From NCBI GenBank assembly GCA_042568575.1, contig JBHPIO010000015.1, forward strand, positions 1 to 26,960: 26,960 nt of DNA, given 5' to 3'. The position numbers and the translations under genes were made by a program. This document shows, piece after piece, positions 7,038 to 22,977 of the stretch. Source of the stretch: Patescibacteria group bacterium (GTDB lineage Bacteria > Patescibacteriota > Gracilibacteria > UBA1369 > PNNO01). The notes below the pieces were generated by a model that ran no database searches, had not been told where the DNA came from, and worked only from the letters and a program-made list of their open reading frames with translations. The stretch's first letter is position 1. Every line of letters begins with the position of its first letter.

Positions 7038-10000
7038 ATGGCAGCACAAAGAAACAGAAAGCTTAGAGATAATCTGCAACCAGAGGATGTTCACACTTTG
7101 GCTGAATATGCGGAGTATTGTTATGAGTCTAATAGTGCAGAGGCTCAGAGGATTCAAAATGATGCTGACAAACAAGATTTACTCGCATCAAGTGACAGTT
7201 ATCGTCAGTTAGCAGAAGAAATGAGAGATGCAATAGACAGAGGAACTCAATTTAAATCCCGAGGCGATTTAGAAAATCACTTTAATGCTAGAAGGGTTGA
7301 CTTTGATAAGGATCCTATAAGGACTAGTTTGATTAATTCTGCAAGAAGATATTTTAATGAGGCACTTAATGTTGCATCAAAAGTTTCATTTGATGTTGTT
7401 AGAGGAAATCATGATTTTCAGACTTGGCGTCAAAGTAAACTAGATTCACATGGTAATTTTATTAGTGCATTAAGTCCGAGCGTACCTTTCGGTGCAGATC
7501 CGGCTACAATTCCAACTTATGTAGAATTGAGACAGATGCAAAGGGATCTTTATGATAGGGAGCAGAATGTGGTTGCTGCAGAACAAGATGCGGCTCAAAA
7601 AGTATTAGATGCCGAACAAGCAACAGTGGATGCAAAACAATTAACACAGGAAGCAGAGCAAAAAGATCAAGAGGCTGAACAAAAGAAACAAGAAGTAGAA
7701 GCAAAAGAGCAAGATTTGGTTGCTAGAGAAGCACAACTTGCGGCAGGTTTACAGCAATTGGCACAACGAGATCAAGCTCAAAATCAACGTGAAGATGCAC
7801 TGAATCAACAAGAGGCAGGATTTGCACAAAGAGGTAGTGATTTAAATCAACGTGAGACCGATGCTTCACAACTTGAGGCTGGCTTGAATCAACGTGAACA
7901 GAATATCGGTCAGCAAGAAGCAGACCTAAATCAACGAGAGCAAGATATAGGTGATAAAGAACAAGTATTAATTACAAAAGGGGACGAAGCCCTTGCAAAA
8001 GAACGTGCCTTGGCAGCAAAAGAGCAGGAAGTAGCTGCACGGGAACAAAAGGCAAGACAGACGATGGATGAATTAGTTAATGACAGGAAAGAATTAGGAG
8101 AAAAAGAAGCACAACTTGCTCAGCGAGCAAGCGAACTTGATGCAAAAAGTGAAGCATTAAGGGTAGAGGCAGGTAGATTAGCTGCAGAAGATCAAAGGCT
8201 TCAAGATTTGGATGCGGAATTAACTCGACGTGAAGCAGCAATAGCTGGAGAAGGTGGTGAAACACCGACACCAGTTCCAACACCTGAGCCAGATGCTGAT
8301 TTAGCGAAACTAAGAGAAGAATTACAAAGAAAAGAGCGAGAATTGTCAGCTCTTCAGGTTCAATTAGATGGTAAAGGTGCTGAGCTTGACGCAAGAGAAA
8401 GTACAGTACAAGAAATGGAAAGATTACTAGAAGATAAGAAGACAATGCTTGCTGAGCAATCGGCGAGATTAGATGCGAGAAGCGCAGAATTAGATAGACG
8501 AGAAAGAGAAATAGCGGGTAAGGGTGGAGGAACACCTACTCCTGTTCCAACTCCAGAACCAGAACATGGTCCTGACACGGGTGGAGGAGCGCCTGAACCA
8601 GATCCACTTCTACCGCCACATCCAAAGCCTCCGGTGCCAAAGCCAAAGCCAAGGCCGGAACCAGAACCAGAACCAGAACCAGAACATGGTCCTGACACGG
8701 GTGGAGGAGCGCCTGAACCAGATCCAATTCTACCGCCACATCCAAAGCCTCCGGCGCCCAAGCCAAAGCCGGGAGTAGCAACTCCTGCTCCAGAACCAAA
8801 ACCAGCGCCAGAGCCAGAAGGTGGTGAAGCACCTGAACCAGCTCCAAAGCCGGCAGGACCGACACTAAAGCCGGGTGTAGCGAAACCATCAGGTGGAACT
8901 GAGCCAGAACCAGGTGCGGCAACTCCAACTCCAGCACCAAAACCATCTGCAGGTATTAAAGGAACAGGACCCGCAGAAGCTGCTCCAGAAACAACAACAG
9001 GATTAGATTTAGGTCCACATATTGAATTGGTAGAAGGTGTTATAAAGGTGCCAGTTGATAATTATTTTGAATCAAATAAGCGACCTGAGAACAAGGATAA
9101 GATTTTCGACTTCATGGATAAATATCGAACAGAGTTTCCTAAAAGTTTGCGAGAGAAACTAGGAGAGTTTGCTCGAGAAAAATCAGAAGGATTATCAAGT
9201 GCAGAAATAAGCGCACAAGTGAAAGCAATAATTCTTGAAGAAATGAAGCAAAGAATTAATGACGAATTATCAAGTACCGAAGAATTTCAACCAAGTGAGA
9301 GAAATGATTTTGCGGACAAGGTAGATGGAGTGCTCAAAGTACTAGGAGTGAGAATAAAAGGATCAGATGAAATAAAAGAATATTTAAAAGCTGACTACGT
9401 GAAAATGTGGTCGGAATTTAGCCGAACAATTAAAGAAAAAGATTACAAAGCAGAAGAATTACAACGATTTTTGTCTGATTGGGGAAGTGATAAACAGCCT
9501 GGTAGATTTGTAAGAGCAATCACTGCTGATTTAGAACGCGTGGGTGCCAAATTAGATGAATCGGAACTTGGTCAATTACAAAAAGAATATAACGCTTTAA
9601 AAGGTGATTTTGCATTTTGCAAAAGTTGTATTGAGTATACTGGGAAAGATTGGTTTGGACGCACAAAAGAAGATTGTATTCGAATATGGGGATTAAATGA
9701 GGATGCATGGGATGGGATTGGATCTGAATTGCCAGAAGAACTGGAAGAGGAATCGGGTGATGATGGCGGTGATACAGGCGGAGGAGCACCAGCTCCAGCG
9801 CCAACAGGAGGTGCAAAACCAACTCCACCACCGGCAGCAACTGGACCGATTCAACCAACACCTCCACCAGTTTCTCCACAGCCTGCTCCGGCACCTGAGC
9901 CTGAGCCAAAACCAGCGCCAGGCCCAACAGTGACAGATATAGAAGGTGAAGAACCAACTCCACCGCCAGAGGTGGATGTTAAAGGAGCAACAACTGCAGT

Positions 10001-12356
10001 GGCGCCAGAAACTACAACTGACAAAACTCCACTCAGAGAGATTATGGATGCGGCAGGAGAAACAGAGCCACCAAAAACACCGAATCAAGTTCTCAAGGAA
10101 ATTTTAGACAAAATACCTGCAACTTGGCCTGAACTTAGAAAAAAAATAAACGAAATTGAAATAAGAAAAGGGGAATCTTTAGCCGACTTGGAAAAAAAAG
10201 TAACCGAACTTATATCTCAAAGTATTACTATTTACTGGATGGAAAATTGGAATGGGCGTTATTTAAAAGGGGAGACAATCCCAAATGATGAGCGGGAAAG
10301 AATAGTTAGAAATATTAAAGGTACTTTGAAAATAATAGGCTTTCCGGCGGAAATGGTACCGAATTTTAGTAGAGAAAATGAAAGAGAATTCTTGAGACCG
10401 GTATTATTAGAACCGATAAAAGAAAGATGGATTCTATTTAAAGACTGGATAGAAAATCCTGATCCAGCAGAGGTGAGACTTACCAAATTTGATTCGAATT
10501 TGCGTAATTATGTAGGAAATGACTTGGAAGAATTGAATGCAAAATATGAAGATATTGAAGTAACTGATGATGAAATAGCAGCTTTAAAAGCACAACATGA
10601 AGCTTTATTAGATGATAGAGACTTTAGTAAGAAATGTATTGAGACACCAAGAAATTCAGGAAGAGATTGGAATTACCGTACAATGGAAAGCTGTATTAAT
10701 TTATGGGGAATTACTCAGGCAGACTGGGAGGCAGGAAGATTATATCCAGAAGAAGAACCAGTAGATGATGGAATTGATACAGGTGGGGGAACGCCAGAAC
10801 CAGAACCGGCTCCTACACCACAGCCAGCTCCAGCTCCTGCACCGAAACCAGAGCCTGCTCCGGCACCACAGCCGCAGCCTGAACCAGAACCTGCGCCAGC
10901 TCCAGAACCGCAACCCGAACCAGCCCCAGCCCCTCAACCTAGTCCAGTTCCGCCGGCAGGTGAAGTTCAACCAACACCTCAGCCTCCGGTTGGCCCAACA
11001 ATTATCGGTACGCCACCTCCAATAGGTGGGCAACCAATTCCGCCAGCAGCGCCAATTCCAGCGCCGGCTCCAACTCCTGAACCCGAGCCAGCACCGACAC
11101 CTCCACCGGCAGCAGAAGTCGCAGGTGAAGGCCCGTCGCCAGCTCCTAAAGCACAAATCGTAGATGGCGCAGAAGAAGAACCACCAACTCAACCTGAACA
11201 ACCAGAAGAAGAACCAGGGCTGGGACCAAAAGCTCCACCAGCATCTCCTCTAAAACCAGGAGGCGGAAAAGCACCGGAACCGGAAGGCAAAACAGCAGGA
11301 AAACCTGCAGATGTTGAACCAGAATCTGACGTAAGAGGACAAGGCCCGGAAGGCTTAGGAGAAATGAAAAGAGATGCGGAAGTTAGTGAAGAACGAGAAG
11401 CAGTAAAAGTATTAATTGCTACACTTAAAGGTCTTAAAGCAAATCAATTAAGAGAGGCAGGGAAATTACTAAAAGGGGAGAAAAAAGGGCTTAGAGATAT
11501 TGATCGTTTAGAAACAATCGCAACTTTAGTAAAAATCTTTGACTCTATAAAAGGTTTCTCAAAACAAGATCAGAGTGAATTTGAAGAATATCTTGATCAA
11601 CAAGCAATCGACCTCCCTGAAAATTTAGAAACTGTTGAGGCAGAAGCAAAAGCTCTTTATGGAAAATCTATTCCAGCAGTAAACGATGCAATCGGTAAAT
11701 ATTTAGAGGCAATCAAAGCAATCCGAAGGGAAGGTCTAAAAAAAGAAGCCGCTACAGCTGATTTAGACGAAGATTTCACAGCTGCTCCAGAAGGCTCTCC
11801 AGAAGCAGAATTCAAAAGAGCCGGCACAACAGACGTCGCTGGTGTATTGAGAGAGTACGATGTTCTTGAAGCAACGCAGGAACTTGAAGCAGCAATGAAG
11901 ACTATTGAGCCGTTTGTTCTTAAAAGGATAGGTAGCTTACTAGAAAAAGGTCAAACTCATGAGCATGCATTTCAATTAAAACACCTACTATCTTCTCTTA
12001 TTAAGTCACTTAATAAATTATATGAATTAGATCGAGAAAAATGGAGTGAAGAGCTTTTGTCGGATATTGATACTCGATTGGCAGGAATATGGGCTAATGA
12101 CGCAAACGAAACGAAATTCCTAGAAGATCTTGAAATTTTGAAAGGAGTTGATAAAACATCTTCAACTGCATTATTAGCACTTTTCAAACTAATCAAAGCA
12201 CTTGAGGCAAAAGGCAAAGCGCCTGGTTCAAAAAAAAAAGCTGAAACGCCGGAAGTAGAGCCATCATTTGAAGAAAAACTTGGAGGCTTGGATTTTAAAC
12301 GAATCCAGGCAGCGCGAGATGCAATTTCAAAATCTGATCCAGATAACGAATCTTAA
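7038..12356 (+). CDS. Giant acidic modular protein (1772 aa): coiled coil, Pro/Glu-rich linkers, duplicated globular domain
   Basis: Uninterrupted 5.3-kb ORF with 14-aa LNQ(R/Q)E repeats, PEP/PAP-rich linkers and two similar Cys/Trp-containing domains. No signal peptide or TM seen; no family recognised. Confidence 0.93.
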   Translation: MAAQRNRKLRDNLQPEDVHTLAEYAEYCYESNSAEAQRIQNDADKQDLLASSDSYRQLAEEMRDAIDRGTQFKSRGDLENHFNARRVDFDKDPIRTSLINSARRYFNEALNVASKVSFDVVRGNHDFQTWRQSKLDSHGNFISALSPSVPFGADPATIPTYVELRQMQRDLYDREQNVVAAEQDAAQKVLDAEQATVDAKQLTQEAEQKDQEAEQKKQEVEAKEQDLVAREAQLAAGLQQLAQRDQAQNQREDALNQQEAGFAQRGSDLNQRETDASQLEAGLNQREQNIGQQEADLNQREQDIGDKEQVLITKGDEALAKERALAAKEQEVAAREQKARQTMDELVNDRKELGEKEAQLAQRASELDAKSEALRVEAGRLAAEDQRLQDLDAELTRREAAIAGEGGETPTPVPTPEPDADLAKLREELQRKERELSALQVQLDGKGAELDARESTVQEMERLLEDKKTMLAEQSARLDARSAELDRREREIAGKGGGTPTPVPTPEPEHGPDTGGGAPEPDPLLPPHPKPPVPKPKPRPEPEPEPEPEHGPDTGGGAPEPDPILPPHPKPPAPKPKPGVATPAPEPKPAPEPEGGEAPEPAPKPAGPTLKPGVAKPSGGTEPEPGAATPTPAPKPSAGIKGTGPAEAAPETTTGLDLGPHIELVEGVIKVPVDNYFESNKRPENKDKIFDFMDKYRTEFPKSLREKLGEFAREKSEGLSSAEISAQVKAIILEEMKQRINDELSSTEEFQPSERNDFADKVDGVLKVLGVRIKGSDEIKEYLKADYVKMWSEFSRTIKEKDYKAEELQRFLSDWGSDKQPGRFVRAITADLERVGAKLDESELGQLQKEYNALKGDFAFCKSCIEYTGKDWFGRTKEDCIRIWGLNEDAWDGIGSELPEELEEESGDDGGDTGGGAPAPAPTGGAKPTPPPAATGPIQPTPPPVSPQPAPAPEPEPKPAPGPTVTDIEGEEPTPPPEVDVKGATTAVAPETTTDKTPLREIMDAAGETEPPKTPNQVLKEILDKIPATWPELRKKINEIEIRKGESLADLEKKVTELISQSITIYWMENWNGRYLKGETIPNDERERIVRNIKGTLKIIGFPAEMVPNFSRENEREFLRPVLLEPIKERWILFKDWIENPDPAEVRLTKFDSNLRNYVGNDLEELNAKYEDIEVTDDEIAALKAQHEALLDDRDFSKKCIETPRNSGRDWNYRTMESCINLWGITQADWEAGRLYPEEEPVDDGIDTGGGTPEPEPAPTPQPAPAPAPKPEPAPAPQPQPEPEPAPAPEPQPEPAPAPQPSPVPPAGEVQPTPQPPVGPTIIGTPPPIGGQPIPPAAPIPAPAPTPEPEPAPTPPPAAEVAGEGPSPAPKAQIVDGAEEEPPTQPEQPEEEPGLGPKAPPASPLKPGGGKAPEPEGKTAGKPADVEPESDVRGQGPEGLGEMKRDAEVSEEREAVKVLIATLKGLKANQLREAGKLLKGEKKGLRDIDRLETIATLVKIFDSIKGFSKQDQSEFEEYLDQQAIDLPENLETVEAEAKALYGKSIPAVNDAIGKYLEAIKAIRREGLKKEAATADLDEDFTAAPEGSPEAEFKRAGTTDVAGVLREYDVLEATQELEAAMKTIEPFVLKRIGSLLEKGQTHEHAFQLKHLLSSLIKSLNKLYELDREKWSEELLSDIDTRLAGIWANDANETKFLEDLEILKGVDKTSSTALLALFKLIKALEAKGKAPGSKKKAETPEVEPSFEEKLGGLDFKRIQAARDAISKSDPDNES
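8553..8770 (+). repeat. Intragenic 120-bp-period tandem duplication with a (CCAGAA)4 microsatellite
   Basis: 8553-8650 versus 8673-8770: 98 bp with 3 mismatches; CCAGAA four times at 8661-8684. Confidence 0.95.
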
Positions 12357-15300
12357 ATGACTGAAGAACCACAAGGACAATTAGATGATGTTCTGGAAAA
12401 ACTACAAGCCTTTGAAGGCCTGGATTCAGACCAAATTAGCCAATTGCTTGCAGAAAACGCTGAAGCATTACCTCAAGATTTAAATCCAATCAGACAAGAA
12501 GCAACAGAAAAGCTAGCAGAATTCGACGACGTTCTAGATATTGTAAATGGCTTCCTTACCGCAGTTCAACAAGTTCGTGATGCAAAAGGTGAAGCGCCAC
12601 GTGCAGCAGATACAGGTGCAGAAGAATCCGAAGAAGCAAAGATCGAAAGATTATCTAGACCAATAATAGCTGCATGCGAAAAGGTAAGGGAAAAGTTTAA
12701 ACGTATCACAATTCTCCCACGTACGTTGTTTGATGAGATTAGATCTGTTCTTGGTGAAGAATATGAATTTATAACTGATTATCTGTTCCATTATGCCGTT
12801 ATTCAAAAAGATGGTTATTCGTTTTTATTGCCAAATCCTCGTTCGATAGGAATTCAAGATCTTACTTATTCTAATTATGACATTATAGACTTAGGAGATC
12901 ATAGCTGGTTGCAAGACGATCACGAATTGTTAAAACTTGCATATTGTGAAACCAAAGATTACAAAGGTGAAAATAGCGAATTTGTAAAAGGACTTATTGA
13001 TAACAAAAATCCTGAGGCAGAATTAAAACGGGTTGTTTTAGAATTTATACGGGAATTAGAAGGGAATGAAATTCCGGATGATTTTGATGCAAGGAAAGAA
13101 TTTGAAGAAGCAATGGAGTCTGTTACTTCTGAAAAAATGTGGACTGTTTTAAGAAATTTTCAAGTTGATCACAGTGAAGAAGATGTGGGCAAAATATTGA
13201 TTTCTTTAATGAATAATATAATTGAATTATCCGAAAAAAAATTAGAATTAGAGAGGCTATTGGAATTGTCCAAAATGGCTTTTAAGCATCGTGTTCATAC
13301 TTGTGACAGAGATGACTTCGGTGGTTTAGTAGATCACTTAAGGAAAATTAATGATGAATCCCCTGAGTGCTCAAAGGCGATATTAGCCTTGCTCAAGGTT
13401 TATTTGAGAATAAAATCTGACTATGAGTCTGAAGCAGCCCCAAAATCTGAAGAATCAGCAGAAACCGCAGAAGAACCAAAAAAGCTAGTATTCCAGCAAT
13501 TAAAATATGGGAAAAAAGTTCAATATTCGGGTGGCCCTATTGTAAAGGGTTATGATCACGACCCTACTGGGGCATCAAAAGACTTTCCATTTAAACGTGA
13601 AGAATGGCGAGCTGTTTTCCCAGGGGTTCAAGGCTACAGTTCCAATTACCCATGGGAAGATGAAGGCGGCCAAATTCTTGTAAAGGAAATGGAACAAGAT
13701 GGGCAAAAATATATTGTTTGTCAAAGATATAAAATGCGTTCAGAAGGTGGCGACAGTGGACGTGGAAGAAATTATCATGAGCAACACTATATAGCAATTC
13801 CGGCAGAAGAGTGGTCAATTGCTGCTATTCCAAAACTTGCAGAAGTGTTAAGCACAACGCCAATTCTCCAGGACGATGATAAGAATTGGGAAATGTCGCC
13901 TATCGAGATTGAAGTTCCATTTGCAGATACAAAACTTCCGGAAGGTTGGTTTGATGAATATGTTCAGGATTTGGTTGCACATATTGTTTCAGGAAAACCA
14001 ATACAACTAGCGGATCCAGATATGAGCGAAAAAGAATTCTTGCAAAAGTTATACTATGCACTTTTGTGCGTTCCTCTATCAATTGCAAGCAAAATAACTT
14101 TTGGTACTGGACTTTATGATGAAGGTTCCAGATATAACGCGGATATTGCTCATTGTCGTGAAGCATCATATACCGGCGTAAGAAAAGTAGGCGGCGAATG
14201 GAAGGCATATTATGAGGGAGAAGATAGAGATGCTGCACGGAAAGCATATAATGAAAAAGCTAAAGATGATGAATTTGGAGGAAAATATATTAAGCATTTG
14301 AAAAAAGTAGGCGTAGATAAAGCCGAACAATTAAAAGACGTATTACAAGCAGTTCCAACCTTGCTAATAAGACGATCAGCTTATAAACGTTTTGGAATGA
14401 ACCCAGATACAAGCGGGGAAGAAGAGCTTGTTAAAGAGTGGGTGGAGGTGAAGGGTGCAAGTAGGGAAGCTCCAGTAGAAGCAGCCCCAGAATCCGAAGA
14501 AGCAAAAATCGAAAGATTAGGGAAACCAATCGCTGACGCCTGGAATAAAGTAAGACAAGAAAATGATATGTCCGTGCAAGGTATGGAAGAGGAAGCAATG
14601 AATAATCATGCGAATGAAATGATCAACAAGGTATTAGAAGAATTAGGCGATGAATATGAACTTATTGGAAGCCACATTATAAATGCCAACATCAGATCGG
14701 GAGATTATATCTTTATGATTACAAGCCCGGCATATGATGCTATTTGGCAGAAGACCGGTCCATATCAATCCTATGAATTGATTAACAGCGATGATGAACT
14801 TTATAACCTTGCAGCAAACTCTAAGCTAGTTAAACCTGCCTATTGCAAAGTTGAAGATTTCAGAAACCAACCTTTTAAAGACGATATCTACGAAAAAGGC
14901 TTAATAGACGTCAATCCTGAAAGAGAGGTTAAAGGTGCGCAGTCGGAAGCTGCAGAACTAGCAGAAGAGGAAGCTAAGTATACAAAGATACTTATGGATG
15001 CATACGAGGAAGTATATGCCGAAATTCAGGCTCAAATTGAAAGTGATCCAGACTTACAAGGAGTCGAAGGAAGAGAGAAAAGAAATATTCTTGAAAGTCC
15101 AAATAAACATTACCAACTAAATTTTACAAATTTGCTTTATGAAAAATTCCCAGTAGAGTTCCCAATACACCCTGGCTACTATTTCGGACACCTTATTCTC
15201 CCATCCGGCAGAATGTTGGTTTTTTATAATCCGTTTTCAACAAGACATATAGTAGAGGTAAGCAAATACTTTGAAGGAACAAATGGCGAAGATGATTTTG

Positions 15301-15488
15301 ATATTAATGAACCACTTGATTACAAAATGCTTAAGCCGGCAATTATTGATAAAATAGATTGGGAAGATCCTAAATTTGCTAGATTTAAAGCTCTCGGGCC
15401 TACAAGGGATTCACATACTATCGATAGTGGACTATGCCATGTTATATCTCCCGGGTTAGTTGAAAGTAGGAAAAAAGAAGATGTTTAA
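12357..15488 (+). CDS. Large acidic modular protein (1043 aa) with a repeated domain and a possible GAP1/DENN-like central domain
   Basis: Uninterrupted ORF starting immediately after the previous stop in the same frame. Repeated ESEEAKIERL...LG(E/D)EYE...K(L/P)AYC...KGLID units. Confidence 0.92.
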   Translation: MTEEPQGQLDDVLEKLQAFEGLDSDQISQLLAENAEALPQDLNPIRQEATEKLAEFDDVLDIVNGFLTAVQQVRDAKGEAPRAADTGAEESEEAKIERLSRPIIAACEKVREKFKRITILPRTLFDEIRSVLGEEYEFITDYLFHYAVIQKDGYSFLLPNPRSIGIQDLTYSNYDIIDLGDHSWLQDDHELLKLAYCETKDYKGENSEFVKGLIDNKNPEAELKRVVLEFIRELEGNEIPDDFDARKEFEEAMESVTSEKMWTVLRNFQVDHSEEDVGKILISLMNNIIELSEKKLELERLLELSKMAFKHRVHTCDRDDFGGLVDHLRKINDESPECSKAILALLKVYLRIKSDYESEAAPKSEESAETAEEPKKLVFQQLKYGKKVQYSGGPIVKGYDHDPTGASKDFPFKREEWRAVFPGVQGYSSNYPWEDEGGQILVKEMEQDGQKYIVCQRYKMRSEGGDSGRGRNYHEQHYIAIPAEEWSIAAIPKLAEVLSTTPILQDDDKNWEMSPIEIEVPFADTKLPEGWFDEYVQDLVAHIVSGKPIQLADPDMSEKEFLQKLYYALLCVPLSIASKITFGTGLYDEGSRYNADIAHCREASYTGVRKVGGEWKAYYEGEDRDAARKAYNEKAKDDEFGGKYIKHLKKVGVDKAEQLKDVLQAVPTLLIRRSAYKRFGMNPDTSGEEELVKEWVEVKGASREAPVEAAPESEEAKIERLGKPIADAWNKVRQENDMSVQGMEEEAMNNHANEMINKVLEELGDEYELIGSHIINANIRSGDYIFMITSPAYDAIWQKTGPYQSYELINSDDELYNLAANSKLVKPAYCKVEDFRNQPFKDDIYEKGLIDVNPEREVKGAQSEAAELAEEEAKYTKILMDAYEEVYAEIQAQIESDPDLQGVEGREKRNILESPNKHYQLNFTNLLYEKFPVEFPIHPGYYFGHLILPSGRMLVFYNPFSTRHIVEVSKYFEGTNGEDDFDINEPLDYKMLKPAIIDKIDWEDPKFARFKALGPTRDSHTIDSGLCHVISPGLVESRKKEDV

Positions 15489-20101: not shown

Positions 20102-20130
20102 TTGAAAAAAACCTCATTTTTTGCTATAAT
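20102..20130 (+). promoter_or_regulatory. Sigma70-type promoter of mscS
   Basis: TTGAAA, 17 nt, TATAAT with extended TG. Confidence 0.8.
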
Positions 20131-20152
20131 TAACAGATTAAAAAACAAAAAT

Positions 20153-21262
20153 ATGCTCGATTTCTTACTAAACATACAAACCGCATTTGCTCAGGTCACT
20201 ACAGGATCTGTAACCGGCGAAACAGAAACGCAGCTTTCAGGGCTATTAGAATTTTTCCTCATAAAAATTCCTTCCTTTATTGCAGCAATCATTGTTTTCG
20301 CACTCTTTTACCTGCTTTCAAAGGCCATAAAGGGGATTGTGGAATCAAGACTTTCGCAATCATTGGAAGAAAATAAGGAAGTTCAGATACTTGCAGGACG
20401 AACAGCAGCAACAACAACCGTTATCATCGGTGCGACAGTAGCGTTAAACATCGCGGGAATCGACCTGACAGTGATAATCGCTGCAGCCGGTTTCGGTGTA
20501 GGTTTCGCTTTAAAAGACATCATAATAAACTTTTTTGCTGGAATAATGATCCTTGCGCAGAAGCAGTTCACAATTGGAGACTTTATTAACGTAGAGGGCA
20601 CAATCGGAAAAATCGTAGAGATCCAAACTCGTGCGACTATCCTTCAAGCTCTTGATGGAACAAAAGTAGTCGTGCCAAACTCGGAACTATTCTTAAAACA
20701 AGTTACCAGCTACACAAGCAACGCATTCAGACGAATCGAAGTAGTGGTTGGTGTTGAATACGATACAAACCTCAACCAAGCAGTTGAGACATGTTACGCA
20801 GCAATTAAAGGAACAAATGGCGTTCTAATAGAGCCAAAACCAGCGGTTCTTGTAGATGAATTCTCGGATAGCTCGATCAGTCTAATCGTTCGAGCGTGGG
20901 TAGAATCACGAAGCGGATGGCTTCAAATAAAGAGTGACCTTGCTGTAAGCATCAAAACAGAATTTGATAAAGTTGGTATTGGCATTCCATTCCCAATCCG
21001 TACAATTGTTTATGATAAAGATGCTAAGGCGGAAAAAGCAGCAAAGCCAGCATGGGTTGCGCAGGAACCAAAACTGGAAGCAGTTCCAGTCCCAGCAGAG
21101 CCTCAAGTAGCGCCAGCAGCTCAGGCACCAGTTCAAGGTCAAGCAGTCCCAGTAGCGCCAGCTGCACCGGCAGTTATACCGCAGGCAGTAACAAAACCTT
21201 CAAAAGATCAGCCGGGTTCAGCCTTCCTAATTGGAAATCCAGAAGATAAAAAAGAATCTTAA
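20153..21262 (+). CDS. mscS: Small-conductance mechanosensitive channel family protein with Pro/Ala-rich tail
   Basis: GFGVGFALKDIIINFFAGI, FTIGDFI, VVVPNS, V.Y.T and GIGIPFP motifs. ATG 20153 chosen because the TTG at 20102 is part of the -35 box. Confidence 0.93.
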   Translation: MLDFLLNIQTAFAQVTTGSVTGETETQLSGLLEFFLIKIPSFIAAIIVFALFYLLSKAIKGIVESRLSQSLEENKEVQILAGRTAATTTVIIGATVALNIAGIDLTVIIAAAGFGVGFALKDIIINFFAGIMILAQKQFTIGDFINVEGTIGKIVEIQTRATILQALDGTKVVVPNSELFLKQVTSYTSNAFRRIEVVVGVEYDTNLNQAVETCYAAIKGTNGVLIEPKPAVLVDEFSDSSISLIVRAWVESRSGWLQIKSDLAVSIKTEFDKVGIGIPFPIRTIVYDKDAKAEKAAKPAWVAQEPKLEAVPVPAEPQVAPAAQAPVQGQAVPVAPAAPAVIPQAVTKPSKDQPGSAFLIGNPEDKKES

Positions 21263-21323
21263 CCTTTCGTCCTCTCGTTACTTTCATAAGGACTCATCAG
21301 TACCGTTTTTAACGGTAGAGGTT
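21261..21323 (-). ncRNA. Type III hammerhead ribozyme
   Basis: Minus strand reads AACC-UC^-UACCGUU-aaa-AACGGUA-CUGAUGA-GUCCU-(uau gaaa gua acgag)-AGGAC-GAAA-GGUU. The CUGAUGA/GAAA/UH core is complete, with stem I 7 bp, stem II 5 bp and stem III 5 bp. Predicted cleavage after C at 21318. Confidence 0.9.
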
Positions 21324-21503
21324 GGGGACTAGTGTTCGGAATCGCGGTCTATAAGACCGGCCTACTTGACGAACGTCCCCCTTTTTTTGTTGGCAGTGCT
21401 CCTGTCCCCGAGTAGGCGAAGCATCGTTGCCGGTGATTACCTCACTATTGGTGCCGGCTTCCCGACTCTATGACATAACGCTGTGAGGCATAACTGACGG
21501 TAC

Positions 21504-21533
21504 CTAATTGGGGTGCAAATCATGATAATTCAT
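21504..21533 (-). CDS. Mini-ORF 2, MNYHDLHPN
   Basis: AAAGGAGG 6 nt upstream of ATG; 9 codons then TAG. Translation unproven. Confidence 0.35.
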   Translation of the reverse strand: MNYHDLHPN

Positions 21534-21579
21534 GCTTGCCCTCCTTTCGTAGTGAAAGTCAGTTCCTCATTTGATGCGC

Positions 21580-21609
21580 TCAAACGGGGACAAAAGCGAT
21601 TTTGTTCAT
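21580..21609 (-). CDS. Mini-ORF 1, MNKIAFVPV
   Basis: AGGAGGT 4 nt upstream of ATG; 9 codons then TGA. Translation unproven. Confidence 0.35.
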   Translation of the reverse strand: MNKIAFVPV

Positions 21610-21634
21610 TGGCACCTCCTATATGCACATATTA

Positions 21635-21663
21635 TTTTTAACATAAAATACGAAAGATGTCAA
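21635..21663 (-). promoter_or_regulatory. Putative promoter of the hammerhead-terminated RNA
   Basis: Perfect TTGACA (21663-21658), 17 nt, then TAAAAA with extended TG; the -10 box is imperfect. Confidence 0.55.
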
Positions 21664-21763
21664 TGCTCGTTGGAATTACACTAATTTTATCACATATTAC
21701 AACTTTTTGGTTGATAAAAGTCCATCGTGGTGCTAGTTTGTTGCCCGGTATTTTTAGAGATAT

Positions 21764-21791
21764 AAAGAAAAACCCTCATCTAAGATGAGGG
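21764..21791 (-). terminator. Intrinsic terminator
   Basis: CCCTCATC-tta-GATGAGGG hairpin followed on the minus strand by TTTTTCTTT. Confidence 0.8.
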
Positions 21792-22157
21792 GAAAAAATT
21801 CAATTCTATCAATCGAGTTTATTAGAAAAACGACTGAGAATCATGCGAATTTTGTTTTTGTTTTACGGTGACCAGTCCATATTTTTGTTTTTGCTTTGCT
21901 TTGGCATAGTTTTTAGTCGTGCCACCGACCGTCTGTTTAGTGTGCGATCTCAAGTAACCGAAGCTACAAGGATGCACCAGACAAAAGTGAGCGGTCCAGT
22001 TGGTCAGGAAAGGGCCATCACAGAGCAAAAAATGAAACCAATTGAAAACTTCAATTAGTGCACACTTTCTGCTATGCTTATCGCGGTCTGATTTTCAAAG
22101 GTCTGATACTAGGCTCGACAAGGGCATCATATAATCTGTATCTTTTATCGAGCGTTT
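21768..22157 (-). ncRNA. Putative ~390-nt structured RNA (class not recognised)
   Basis: Bounded by a near-consensus promoter and an intrinsic terminator, with no convincing CDS. Has a cUUCGg tetraloop hairpin (21954-21967), a long G-U-containing hairpin (22024-22073) and a 5' stem (22145-22153/22113-22121). Confidence 0.6.
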
Positions 22158-22163
22158 CATGTC

Positions 22164-22192
22164 AGTATATAAAATTAGCCCACGCGAGTCAA
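22164..22192 (-). promoter_or_regulatory. Sigma70-type promoter pointing into the intergenic region
   Basis: TTGACT (22192-22187), 17 nt, TATACT (22169-22164). Confidence 0.75.
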
Positions 22193-22230
22193 AGTATACG
22201 CCTAGACACATTCTTTAAAACCATTGTACG

Positions 22231-22977
22231 TTGGAAATAAAAGGAGTAAAAACCCGCATAATAAAGGAGAAAGACGACCTTTTCGAAGTCTTAAAAGAAT
22301 CTCTAAAAAAGAGCAAAATTAAGCTCAAAGAGAAGGATGTTTTAGTGATCGCATCAAAGGTTTTAGCCGTTACTCAAGGCAGAGTCGTGCCGGTAAAAGA
22401 CCTCGACTACAAGAAAGGTCATTTAAAAGAGATAATTCAAAAGGAAGGCGGCATGCTATTCGAAACAAACTATTGCTGGTTAACCTTTAAAGATGGACAC
22501 TTAATCCCAAACGCAGGCGTAGACAAGTCAAACGTAGAAGAAGGCAAAGTAATTCTCTGGCCAAAAAACATAATAAAGGAAGCACGAGAAATCCAGGAAA
22601 AATTACGCAAAGAATACAAACTCCGCAACTTAGGCGTAGTAATATCAGACTCAACAACAGCGCCACTACGGTCGGGCGTACATGGAATATCACTCGGATC
22701 ACACGGATTTGAAGCAGTAGAGGACTGCCGCGGAACAAAAGACATCTATGGGAAGAAAATCAACATAACAAGACGAGCAATGGCCGACAGCCTAGCAACA
22801 GCCGCAATAATCGTAATGGGCGAGACAAACAACAAGATGCCATTCGCAATAGTACGCGGCGCACCAGTCAAATTCACAAACAAAAAACTGCGAAGACACT
22901 TTATCCGCTTGAAATCGGACTTATTCTACGGTATGTATAATAATGCCTTTAGAAAATTCCTATCACGCAAAAAATAA
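22231..22977 (+). CDS. Coenzyme F420-0:L-glutamate ligase (CofE) family protein, possibly a folate gamma-glutamyl ligase (FolC2-like)
   Basis: DVLVIASKV, PNAGVDKSN, GVVISDS..PLRSG, G.KDIYG, ADSLATAA and MGE motifs; TTG start. Confidence 0.88.
   Translation: MEIKGVKTRIIKEKDDLFEVLKESLKKSKIKLKEKDVLVIASKVLAVTQGRVVPVKDLDYKKGHLKEIIQKEGGMLFETNYCWLTFKDGHLIPNAGVDKSNVEEGKVILWPKNIIKEAREIQEKLRKEYKLRNLGVVISDSTTAPLRSGVHGISLGSHGFEAVEDCRGTKDIYGKKINITRRAMADSLATAAIIVMGETNNKMPFAIVRGAPVKFTNKKLRRHFIRLKSDLFYGMYNNAFRKFLSRKK

What the first reader, a model, noticed from the sequence alone, without database searches (positions are those of the whole stretch)
21504..21620. Two equal-length 9-codon mini-ORFs with AGGAGG sites in a window where most genes lack an SD
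MNKIAFVPV and MNYHDLHPN share the pattern M-N-x-x-x-(F/L)-x-P-x-stop, and each has AGGAGG at canonical spacing. I saw no equally strong SD before any normal gene in the window. The second SD and AUG can be buried in a hairpin (GGAGGGCAAGCAUGA-auua-UCAUGAUUUGCACCCC). Inference: micropeptides, ribosome-sensing leader ORFs, ribosome or CsrA-type decoy sites, or signals meant for a different cell's ribosomes.
Basis: partly seen in the sequence, partly recalled or inferred. Interest (0 to 1): 0.7.

Follow-up and report, generated by a model that had tools for sequence, protein, structure and literature searches.

The report
Ribozyme-ended RNA cassette with mini-ORFs
The two tiny ORFs sit in a roughly 0.5-kb inserted RNA gene that carries its own promoter and ends in a self-cleaving hammerhead ribozyme, and one of them, with its very strong ribosome-binding site, recurs in a related cassette elsewhere, so it is probably a real ribosome-contact site and not chance.

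Summary
On the minus strand, AGGAGG-5 nt-ATG MNKIAFVPV-TGA and AGGAGG-6 nt-ATG MNYHDLHPN-TAG are present. This 1.2-Mb CPR-type genome shows no SD enrichment before its genes although its 16S keeps the anti-SD.

The ORFs are not free-standing. They lie in a ~0.5-kb stretch (about 21263-21760) that the same-genus genome lacks.

Two genomes of another family in the same order carry a window-like unit at a different locus (argH/methyltransferase junction); two congeners lack it there. They share GAAAGGAGG (a 9-nt complement of the 16S tail), a 6-nt spacer, AUG, 8 codons ending CAC-CCN-ANN-stop, a masking hairpin and GGUACC. ORF1 has no counterpart there; a loosely similar 5' SD plus 9-codon ORF exists in one distant genome.

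Best reading: a ribozyme-processed orphan RNA cassette with a conserved, masked ribosome-binding micro-ORF. The cassette is well supported. What the ORFs do is inferred. No expression data were available.

The parts
21263..21760 (-). Whole cassette: about 0.5 kb present here but absent from the same-genus genome G001. Boundaries are approximate: left 21220-21262, right 21757-21765.
   Evidence: blastn and MAFFT against G001:C63. There the mscS stop is followed directly by the terminator hairpin that here lies at 21773-21791. GC is about 0.50 against 0.38 for the genome. Single copy, no paralogue.
21634..21663 (-). Sigma-70-type promoter: TTGACA, spacer, TGtTAAAAAT (extended -10). The predicted start is near 21628.
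   Evidence: Promoter scan, 10 of 12 matches. The extended -10 reading comes from the sequence. The same TTGACA...TGnTAnAAn layout precedes the related units in L068, L069, L074 and L075. No transcript data.
21615..21620 (-). SD1 AGGAGG. AGGAGGTG is an 8-nt complement of the 16S tail. In the fold of the processed RNA it pairs with the CCUC at the 3' end next to the ribozyme cut.
   Evidence: The 5'-3' pairing is a prediction only. It is also possible in G261 and, by my reading of the sequence, in G843, but not in G840.
21580..21609 (-). Mini-ORF1: ATG, 9 codons (MNKIAFVPV), TGA. It overlaps the 5' strand of a predicted 13-bp long-range helix (21597-21585 with 21410-21398).
   Evidence: Not found in the G840/G843 units. 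A loose analogue exists in G261. Read with TGA=Gly it extends to 54 aa with no Pfam hit and no homologue.
21540..21548 (-). SD2 GAAAGGAGG: a 9-nt perfect complement of the 16S 3' tail. It is identical in the G840 and G843 units.
   Evidence: The motif occurs 12 times in the genome against 5.6 expected from base composition.
21504..21533 (-). Mini-ORF2: ATG, 9 codons (MNYHDLHPN), TAG. G843 has MTFAAHPT-TGA and G840 has MIFAAHPT-TAA.
21510..21545 (-). Hairpin masking SD2 and AUG2. GG-A-GG pairs with CC-A-CC of the His-Pro codons. The inner stem differs from that of the relatives.
   Evidence: MFE and centroid folds. The equivalent hairpin is in the G843 and G840 folds.
21324..21388 (-). A7 linker plus terminal hairpin GGGGGAC...GUCCCC, just before the ribozyme cut. 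On the + strand the same hairpin followed by T7 reads as an intrinsic terminator for mscS.
   Evidence: Counterparts are GGGAGGU...ACCUCC in G840, G843 and G261. A hairpin precedes the HHR in the related loci read. The terminator role is inferred from reading; the scan does not accept loops this long.
21259..21325 (-). Type III hammerhead ribozyme. The predicted cut is after C21318 (AACCUC|U). Stem II carries an extension hairpin.
   Evidence: RF00008 at 36.5 bits, E 5.7e-6, below the gathering score of 48.5. All core nucleotides are present. Covariation over 14 related ribozymes: 98.1% of cells paired, 9 of 15 pairs with changes on both sides, 0 of 500 shuffles reach the observed values.

Best explanation
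The two mini-ORFs belong to a self-contained, lineage-specific RNA cassette of about 0.5 kb, read on the minus strand.

1. An extended -10 promoter starts transcription near 21628.
2. A type III hammerhead ribozyme cuts after C21318.
3. This releases an RNA of about 310 nt that ends in a stable hairpin, a short AACCUC tail and (from the known hammerhead chemistry) a 2',3'-cyclic phosphate.
4. On the other strand, the same hairpin plus its A-run serves as the terminator of the convergent mscS gene. The insertion therefore does not disturb its neighbour.

Inside the RNA, site 2 (GAAAGGAGG, 6 nt, AUG, 8-9 codons ending His-Pro-X-stop) is a conserved module. It is complementary over 9 nt to the 16S tail and is normally masked in a hairpin. 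I read it as a conditional 30S/ribosome-binding site. Either a translated micro-ORF or a ribosome-holding site would fit.

Site 1 is specific to this window. It lies in the less structured 5' part and overlaps one strand of a 13-bp helix that closes the domain holding site 2. Translating it could open that domain, as in leader-peptide attenuation.

What is shown: the cassette, the ribozyme, the insertion status and the conservation of site 2. What is inferred: transcription, cleavage in vivo, ribosome binding, and any coupling between site 1 and site 2.
For: Ribozyme:
- RF00008, E 5.7e-6, with the full catalytic core.
- Covariation in stems I and III over 14 related copies, 0 of 500 shuffles as high.

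Insertion:
- Absent from same-genus G001, where the mscS stop abuts the shared terminator.
- The ribozyme pattern was found in 0 of 12 other genomes of the family and in 9 of 205 of the order.
- A second, independent presence/absence case: window-like units sit between argH and a methyltransferase gene in G840 and G843. Congeners G841 and G842 have stop and ATG adjacent or overlapping there.

Structure:
- z -3.5 for the processed RNA and -2.7 for its 5' 237 nt.
- G840 z -4.0 and G843 z -2.8.
- Between G840 and G843 the 5' leader is 37-60% identical. The stretch from the SD module onwards is mostly 77-97% identical, apart from one variable hairpin (50-70%) where I read paired changes by eye.

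Site 2:
- The pattern AAAGGAGG-N6-ATG-N8-30-GCACCC hits 3 of 205 genomes of the order (G000, G840, G843). All hits lie upstream of the ribozyme, about 230-250 nt by my count.
- Three different stop codons occur at the same codon position.
- In 117 phage sites with the same pattern, only 3 open ORFs of 15 codons or fewer. The short ORF is therefore not the usual outcome of this motif.
- The 16S tail complement was checked.

Related cassettes:
- Units with the same ribozyme subtype carry SD-led orphan protein genes (L068, L069). SD-dependent starts are thus a habit of these units in genomes that otherwise do not use SD.
Against: - No RNA data of any kind.
- Only two independent lineages share site 2, and G840 and G843 are congeners. 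The pattern was written after seeing them, and the reversed-pattern control gave 1 hit.
- A covariance model built from G840 and G843 scores the window site at only 8.0 bits, E 1.8, rank 2 of 7. Outside short motifs the middle of the RNA does not align.
- CAC-CCN could be conserved merely because it pairs with GGAGG. The U-A to U.G change that turns TAA into TGA also preserves a helix, so structure alone could explain much.
- ORF1 is not conserved in the window-like units.
- There is no downstream gene for an attenuator to control.
- The ribozyme scores below Rfam's gathering threshold.
- In a close relative (run X1) 1-nt indels occur in the RNA body.
Confidence: 0.55

Rival explanations
1. 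This is a purely structural noncoding RNA. The AGGAGG tracts are only purine strands of helices (a 5'-3' closing helix and the site-2 hairpin). The AUGs, frames and stops are incidental, and no ribosome is involved.
For: - Both SD tracts are base-paired in the predicted folds.
- The distant unit in G261 is a very structured RNA (z -7.0) with several GGAGGU/CCUCC pairs and no convincing ORF.
- Short ORFs follow 256 of 546 SD-like sites by chance.
- The changes between G840 and G843 also preserve pairing.
Against: - A helix strand would be expected to covary, as the terminal hairpin does (GGGGGAC/GUCCCC against GGGAGGU/ACCUCC). Yet GAAAGGAGG, including its unpaired GAAA, is identical across families and matches the 16S tail over 9 nt.
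- The AUG keeps a 6-nt spacing while the spacer sequence differs.
- Three different stop codons sit at the same codon position.
Confidence: 0.25
2. It is the decayed remnant of a protein-coding cassette. Related ribozyme-ended units carry SD-led orphan genes. Here the cargo gene would have degenerated, leaving its SD, its start and a few codons.
For: - In about 25 of 30 related ribozyme loci, an ORF of about 80 aa or more ends 46-271 nt upstream of the ribozyme.
- L068 and L069 have the same ribozyme subtype with SD-led 114- and 211-aa orphan ORFs.
- ORF1 read through three TGA codons stays open for 54 codons.
- 1-nt indels occur in a close relative.
Against: - No similarity to any protein: no Pfam hit, no homologue among 5.8 billion clusters, and tblastx against the own genome and the fetched loci found nothing.
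- The G840 and G843 units are equally non-coding, and the stretch from the SD module to the ribozyme is mostly 77-97% identical with one variable hairpin in which I read paired changes by eye. That pattern suggests a functional RNA, not a wreck.
- The fold is better than shuffles.
Confidence: 0.15
3. It is a CsrA-type protein sponge, or signals meant for a foreign cell's ribosomes.
For: There are several GGA/GGAGG motifs, some in loops. GC content is higher than in the host genome.
Against: - CsrA (PF02599) was found in 0 of 3 genomes searched (G000, G261, G366). G000 is only 82% complete.
- The host's own 16S carries the matching anti-SD.
- No match in phage or plasmid collections, and none for the ribozyme-subtype and leader patterns in viral contigs.
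Confidence: 0.05

Closest known systems
Bacterial type III hammerhead ribozymes (Rfam RF00008)
   Same: Full catalytic core, three stems with covariation, and an intergenic position. The review PMC6155905 (passages read) says canonical type I and III hammerheads occur in intergenic regions of bacterial genomes, and that their biological role is an open question.
   Different: - Scores below the gathering threshold because of a long stem II extension.
- Sits at the 3' end of a promoter-bearing non-coding unit, preceded by a hairpin. It abuts the stop codon of a convergent gene.
- No phage context was found.
- Two literature searches for hammerheads in Patescibacteria or the candidate phyla radiation returned 0 papers.
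RAGATH-type RNAs and genes associated with twister and hammerhead ribozymes (Weinberg et al. 2017, PMC5737381)
   Same: Orphan structured RNAs and orphan genes next to self-cleaving ribozymes, with function unknown.
   Different: I saw this paper only in the search listing; its content is recalled, not read. The only RAGATH match here is RAGATH-11 at 15.2 bits, E 7.2, on the opposite strand, which is noise.
Leader-peptide translation attenuators (cat-86, cmlA, ermC type; recalled, not looked up)
   Same: A short SD-led leader ORF of about 9 codons lies upstream of a second SD that is masked in a hairpin.
   Different: No regulated gene follows. The masked site opens only an 8-9 codon ORF. ORF1 is not conserved. 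No resistance context.
Retrozymes and other hammerhead-bearing non-autonomous elements of eukaryotes (recalled)
   Same: A small non-coding, insertion-polymorphic unit that carries a hammerhead.
   Different: One ribozyme, not two flanking ones. The promoter lies inside the inserted DNA. Single copy. No repeats at the ends.

Membership tests
Hammerhead ribozyme type III (RF00008) | Conserved core CUGAUGA ... GAAA, and a cleavage triplet with U16.1 and H17 | tested here: met
   The alignment shows CUGAUGA, GAAA and AACCUC|U. These columns are invariant in 14 of 14 related copies.
Hammerhead ribozyme type III (RF00008) | Three helices around the core, with the open ends at stem III | tested here: met
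   98.1% of 210 cells paired. Changes on both sides occur in 5 of 6 stem I pairs and 4 of 5 stem III pairs. Stem II is invariant, but it was fixed by the search pattern.
Hammerhead ribozyme type III (RF00008) | Score at or above Rfam's gathering threshold | tested here: not met
   36.5 bits against 48.5. The deficit falls on the 17-nt insertion in stem II.
Hammerhead ribozyme type III (RF00008) | Self-cleavage | not testable with these tools
   Needs an in vitro transcription and cleavage assay.
Leader-peptide translation attenuator | A short SD-led leader ORF whose translation remodels a hairpin that masks a downstream SD | tested here: inconclusive
   The layout is present in the predicted fold. 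ORF1 is not conserved in the related units.
Leader-peptide translation attenuator | A regulated protein gene behind the masked SD | tested here: not met
   The longest minus-strand ORF in the unit is 32 aa.
CsrA/RsmA-sequestering sRNA | A CsrA-family protein in the genome | tested here: not met
   PF02599 found in 0 of 3 genomes. G000 is 82% complete.
MITE-like non-autonomous transposon | Terminal inverted repeats, target duplication, and many copies | tested here: not met
   No terminal repeats. One copy in the genome. A possible short A-rich duplication at the junctions was seen only by eye and is not established.
Housekeeping RNAs (RNase P, tmRNA, 6S, SRP) | Match to the family model at this locus | tested here: not met
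   No such match at E up to 10. RNase P, tmRNA and 6S lie on other contigs. SRP RNA was not found anywhere in the genome.

The most novel reading that the evidence does not exclude
Peregrinibacteria-like CPR bacteria carry a class of plug-in RNA cassettes of about 0.5 kb. Each runs from a promoter through a structured RNA and a hairpin to a hammerhead. They insert at gene 3' ends or operon junctions and bring a replacement terminator for the neighbouring gene. Their processed RNA presents a masked 'super-SD' micro-ORF (9-10 nt of complementarity to the 16S tail) in genomes that otherwise do not use SD. On this reading the RNA is a dedicated, ribozyme-matured 30S/ribosome-engaging RNA. It would act as a translation sensor or a ribosome trap, not as an mRNA for a protein.
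Probability: 0.25. Interest if true: 0.75.

Novelty: new variant of a known kind. Interest (0 to 1): 0.55.

Why it matters
What bacterial hammerhead ribozymes are for is still an open question (PMC6155905, passages read). This locus gives a compact, testable case.

- The ribozyme defines the 3' end of a promoter-bearing orphan RNA.
- That RNA is insertion-polymorphic at two unrelated loci.
- It carries the only canonical, conserved ribosome-binding module in its neighbourhood, in a genome that has otherwise given up SD-led initiation.

If the module binds ribosomes, it links ribozyme processing, SD/anti-SD pairing and micro-ORFs in the little-studied CPR bacteria. If it does not, the unit is still a new structured RNA family with a defined ribozyme end.

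Tried and rejected
- **Rfam.** The whole window at gathering thresholds gave 0 matches. There are no tRNA or tmRNA genes in the window.
- **Housekeeping RNA idea: rejected**.
- **DNA homologues by BLAST.** 1 of 41 relatives matched, and that was the genome itself. Of the 401-genome phylum sample, 5 matched; two matched only the ribozyme and two only 19-28 nt at chance level (G090 is the start of a NUDIX-like ORF by my reading; no family search was run).
- **Phage and plasmid collections:** no match.
- **Viral pattern scans.** L029-L031 are ordinary phage intergenic hammerheads. The ribozyme-subtype and leader patterns gave 0. The SD-module pattern gave 117 ordinary gene starts.
- **Sequencing runs.** No RNA holder is listed. 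Two small-share DNA holders were laid. X1 looks like a close relative with the same layout. The different flank in X2 may be only a divergent mscS tail, so I do not count it as evidence of mobility.
- **TGA=Gly reading of ORF1:** no family, no homologue.
- **Paralogue search in the own genome:** none.
- **G261 and G605** have no close relatives that could be compared.
- **Covariance model R1** of the SD module found nothing significant in 36 other loci and only 8 bits in the window.
- **Cargo proteins of L068 and L069:** no Pfam family above cut-off, no PHROG, and only self in the protein collection.
- **CsrA:** not found.
- **Terminal repeats:** none.

Full report
**What is at the coordinates**

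The window is a whole contig (C7) of a 1.2-Mb, 82%-complete genome with 38% GC. A source name attached to a protein of a same-order genome reads Candidatus Peregrinibacteria.

Both mini-ORFs are on the minus strand.
- Site 1: AGGAGG 21620-21615, then 5 nt, ATG at 21609, nine codons (MNKIAFVPV), TGA at 21582-21580.
- Site 2: GAAAGGAGG 21548-21540, then 6 nt, ATG at 21533, nine codons (MNYHDLHPN), TAG at 21506-21504.

The hairpin that buries SD2 and AUG2 appears in the MFE and centroid folds.

**Is it more than chance?**

Among 878 ORFs of at least 150 aa, SD-like words upstream are no more frequent than in random windows (GGAG 29 against 31; AGGAGG 3 against 1). The 16S 3' end still reads GGATCACCTCCTTTCT.

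AGGAGG is not enriched in the window: 11 against 8.8 expected. By comparison with the ORF table, the other nine sites lie inside or antisense to genes.

Short ORFs behind SD-like sites are common by chance: 256 of 546 such sites. The pair of 9-codon ORFs alone therefore proves little.

**The surroundings change the picture**

The flanking genes are an MscS-family channel (20102-21262, + strand) and an F420-0:gamma-glutamyl-ligase-like gene (22231-22977, + strand).

A permissive Rfam scan finds a type III hammerhead ribozyme at 21259-21325 on the minus strand (36.5 bits, E 5.7e-6, gathering score 48.5). Every core nucleotide is present, and the predicted cut is after C21318. Its last bases overlap the mscS stop codon.

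Upstream, at 21663-21634, lies a TTGACA/extended -10 promoter. It follows a minus-strand terminator at 21791-21773.

So promoter, ~310-nt RNA, hairpin (21381-21324, preceded by an A7 run) and ribozyme form one unit. No ORF in it exceeds 32 aa.
- The processed RNA folds better than shuffles: z -3.5 overall and z -2.7 for the 5' 237 nt. The opposite strand gives z -2.0.
- On the + strand, the hairpin followed by T7 reads as the mscS terminator. This comes from reading the sequence; the scan cannot take such a long loop.

**It is an insertion**

In the same-genus genome G001, the mscS stop is followed at once by the hairpin that here lies at 21773-21791. About 0.5 kb is missing there.
- The unit is single-copy with no paralogue.
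- It has no terminal repeats.
- It has no match in phages or plasmids.
- It is not RNase P, tmRNA or 6S, which lie elsewhere in the genome.
- Contigs of two public DNA runs hold near-identical pieces. No RNA holder is listed.

**Relatives of the ribozyme**

The core pattern with a GUCC/GGAC stem II occurs in:
- 18 of 401 genomes sampled from the phylum;
- 3 of 401 sampled from the class;
- 9 of 205 of the order.

The reversed pattern gave 0 hits in these scans.

In an alignment of 14 related copies, stems I and III covary strongly. 98.1% of cells are paired, 9 of 15 pairs change on both sides, and 0 of 500 shuffles reach the observed values. Sliding the partner columns drops pairing to 26-45%.

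In about 25 of 30 loci, an ordinary ORF ends 46-271 nt upstream of the ribozyme. In the loci I read a hairpin sits just before the ribozyme, and several have a terminator just after it.

Two same-class units (L068 of G605, L069 of G632) have the window's ribozyme subtype and promoter type. They also share:
- a leader stem-loop whose loop reads GRCGAAACCUCUAR;
- SD-led but unrelated orphan genes of 114 and 211 aa.

The ribozyme module thus ends many different transcripts. The window and three others (G261, G840, G843) are the non-coding cases.

**Window-like units**

G840 and G843 belong to one genus, in another family of the same order. Each carries the same layout as the window:
- a promoter and a poorly conserved leader;
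- then GAAAGGAGG, 6 nt, and AUG;
- the ORFs AUG-ACU-UUU-GCA-GCG-CAC-CCG-ACC-UGA (G843) and AUG-AUU-UUU-GCA-GCG-CAC-CCG-ACU-UAA (G840);
- then GGUACC, a structured body and an A-rich linker;
- a GGGAGGU...ACCUCC hairpin, AACCUC|U, and a ribozyme whose stem II extension is nearly that of the window.

The window has AUG-AAU-UAU-CAU-GAU-UUG-CAC-CCC-AAU-UAG. The shared features are:
- the 9-nt SD, which is the exact complement of CCUCCUUUC in the 16S tail;
- the spacing and the AUG;
- His-Pro;
- one more codon and then a stop, with all three stop codons used;
- a 3-nt length difference, which keeps the frame;
- a hairpin in which GG-A-GG pairs with CC-A-CC while the inner stem differs.

The pattern occurs in 3 of 205 genomes of the order, with 1 reversed-pattern control hit. 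In phage DNA the same pattern opens long ORFs in 114 of 117 sites.

Between G840 and G843 the leader is 37-60% identical. The stretch from the SD module to the ribozyme is mostly 77-97% identical. One hairpin in between is variable (50-70%), and there I read paired changes by eye.

**A second presence/absence case**

In G840 and G843 the unit lies between argH (convergent) and a methyltransferase gene. G843 has an extra toxin-antitoxin-like gene pair there, named from reading the sequence only. Congeners G841 and G842 have the argH stop and the methyltransferase ATG adjacent or overlapping. The unit is therefore an insertion there too, at a locus unrelated to the window's.

**Evidence against, stated plainly**

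- A covariance model built from G840 and G843 scores the window's site at only 8.0 bits (E 1.8) and finds nothing elsewhere.
- MAFFT does not align the RNA bodies.
- Only two independent lineages share site 2, and the pattern was written after seeing them.
- CAC-CCN may be kept only for pairing.
- ORF1 has no counterpart in G840 or G843. The only analogue is in the distant G261 (GGGAGGTGGCC-GTG, nine codons, TGA). That RNA is very structured (z -7.0) and otherwise unlike the window.
- There are no expression data.

**Mechanism**

Shown: a promoter-like site, a covarying hammerhead with an intact core, insertion status at two loci, and a conserved masked SD-AUG-micro-ORF module.

Inferred:
- the RNA is made, cuts itself after C21318 and ends in hairpin-AACCUC with a cyclic phosphate;
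- site 2 binds 30S subunits or ribosomes when its hairpin opens;
- in the window, translation of ORF1 could open the 13-bp helix (21597-21585 with 21410-21398) that encloses site 2.

No gene follows. The output would therefore be the RNA's own fate or ribosome engagement, not a protein.

My odds:
- 0.55 for the ribozyme-ended cassette with a functional ribosome-contact module;
- 0.25 for structure only;
- 0.15 for a decayed cargo gene;
- 0.05 for a CsrA sponge or foreign signals. CsrA was found in 0 of 3 genomes.

**Comparison and novelty**

The ribozyme is a new member of a known class. Its role in bacteria is called an open question in the review I read in passages (PMC6155905).

Two full-text searches for hammerheads in Patescibacteria or the candidate phyla radiation found no paper. 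A search on hammerhead, Shine-Dalgarno and micropeptide gave only synthetic-biology and unrelated titles in the listing.

The cassette with its super-SD micro-ORF is a new variant of ribozyme-associated orphan RNAs. It resembles leader-peptide attenuators in layout but fails their defining feature, a regulated gene.

Noticed in passing
window 21790-22230: This non-coding-looking stretch ends at the minus-strand terminator 21791-21773. Over about 140 nt it is almost identical to the same-genus genome G001, while the flanking genes are 78-84% identical. The small ORFs there have no Pfam family and no Rfam family matches. It may be another small RNA or a tiny gene.
   Followed up: partly
G000, whole genome: Neither the small nor the large bacterial SRP RNA model finds a match in this 82%-complete genome. 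RNase P, tmRNA and 6S RNA are found.
   Followed up: partly
L068:900-1000 (+) and the matching leader in L069 (minus strand): Two ribozyme-ended cassettes with different orphan genes share a leader stem-loop, UUGYARU[GRCGAAACCUCUAR]AUURCAA. The stem shows compensatory changes. The loop contains an anti-SD-like ACCUCU that could pair with the cargo gene's SD. Rfam has no family for it.
   Followed up: partly
L043:1115-1505 (+) (G261): A ~390-nt RNA ends in the same ribozyme subtype. It is extremely well folded (z -7.0, -156 kcal/mol), has three GGAGGU and two CCUCC tracts, matches no Rfam family besides the hammerhead, and has no relatives in 40 neighbouring genomes.
   Followed up: partly
L052-L057 (six genomes of family f40): These hammerheads have AT-rich stem II extensions and a conserved upstream block (...CACACGCTAGAGTCTCTAAGAYT...). 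They sit about 110-125 nt downstream of ORFs whose C-terminal sequences resemble each other in several of the loci. This looks like a vertically kept 3'-UTR ribozyme.
   Followed up: no
L075:2069-2570 (+) (G843): A two-gene module that looks like an AbrB/MazE-type antitoxin plus a RelE/ParE-type toxin lies next to the RNA cassette in G843 but not in G840. The names come from reading the sequences only; no family search was run.
   Followed up: no
window 7038-15488 (+): Two very long adjacent ORFs of 1772 and 1043 aa carry long proline/glutamate/alanine-rich low-complexity tracts and internally repeated segments. They were not analysed.
   Followed up: no
window 21160-21262 compared with G001 and run X1: The C-terminal tail of the MscS-like protein is low-complexity and changes fast. 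Its last ~8 codons differ between G000 and G001, and may have been re-made at the insertion junction.
   Followed up: partly
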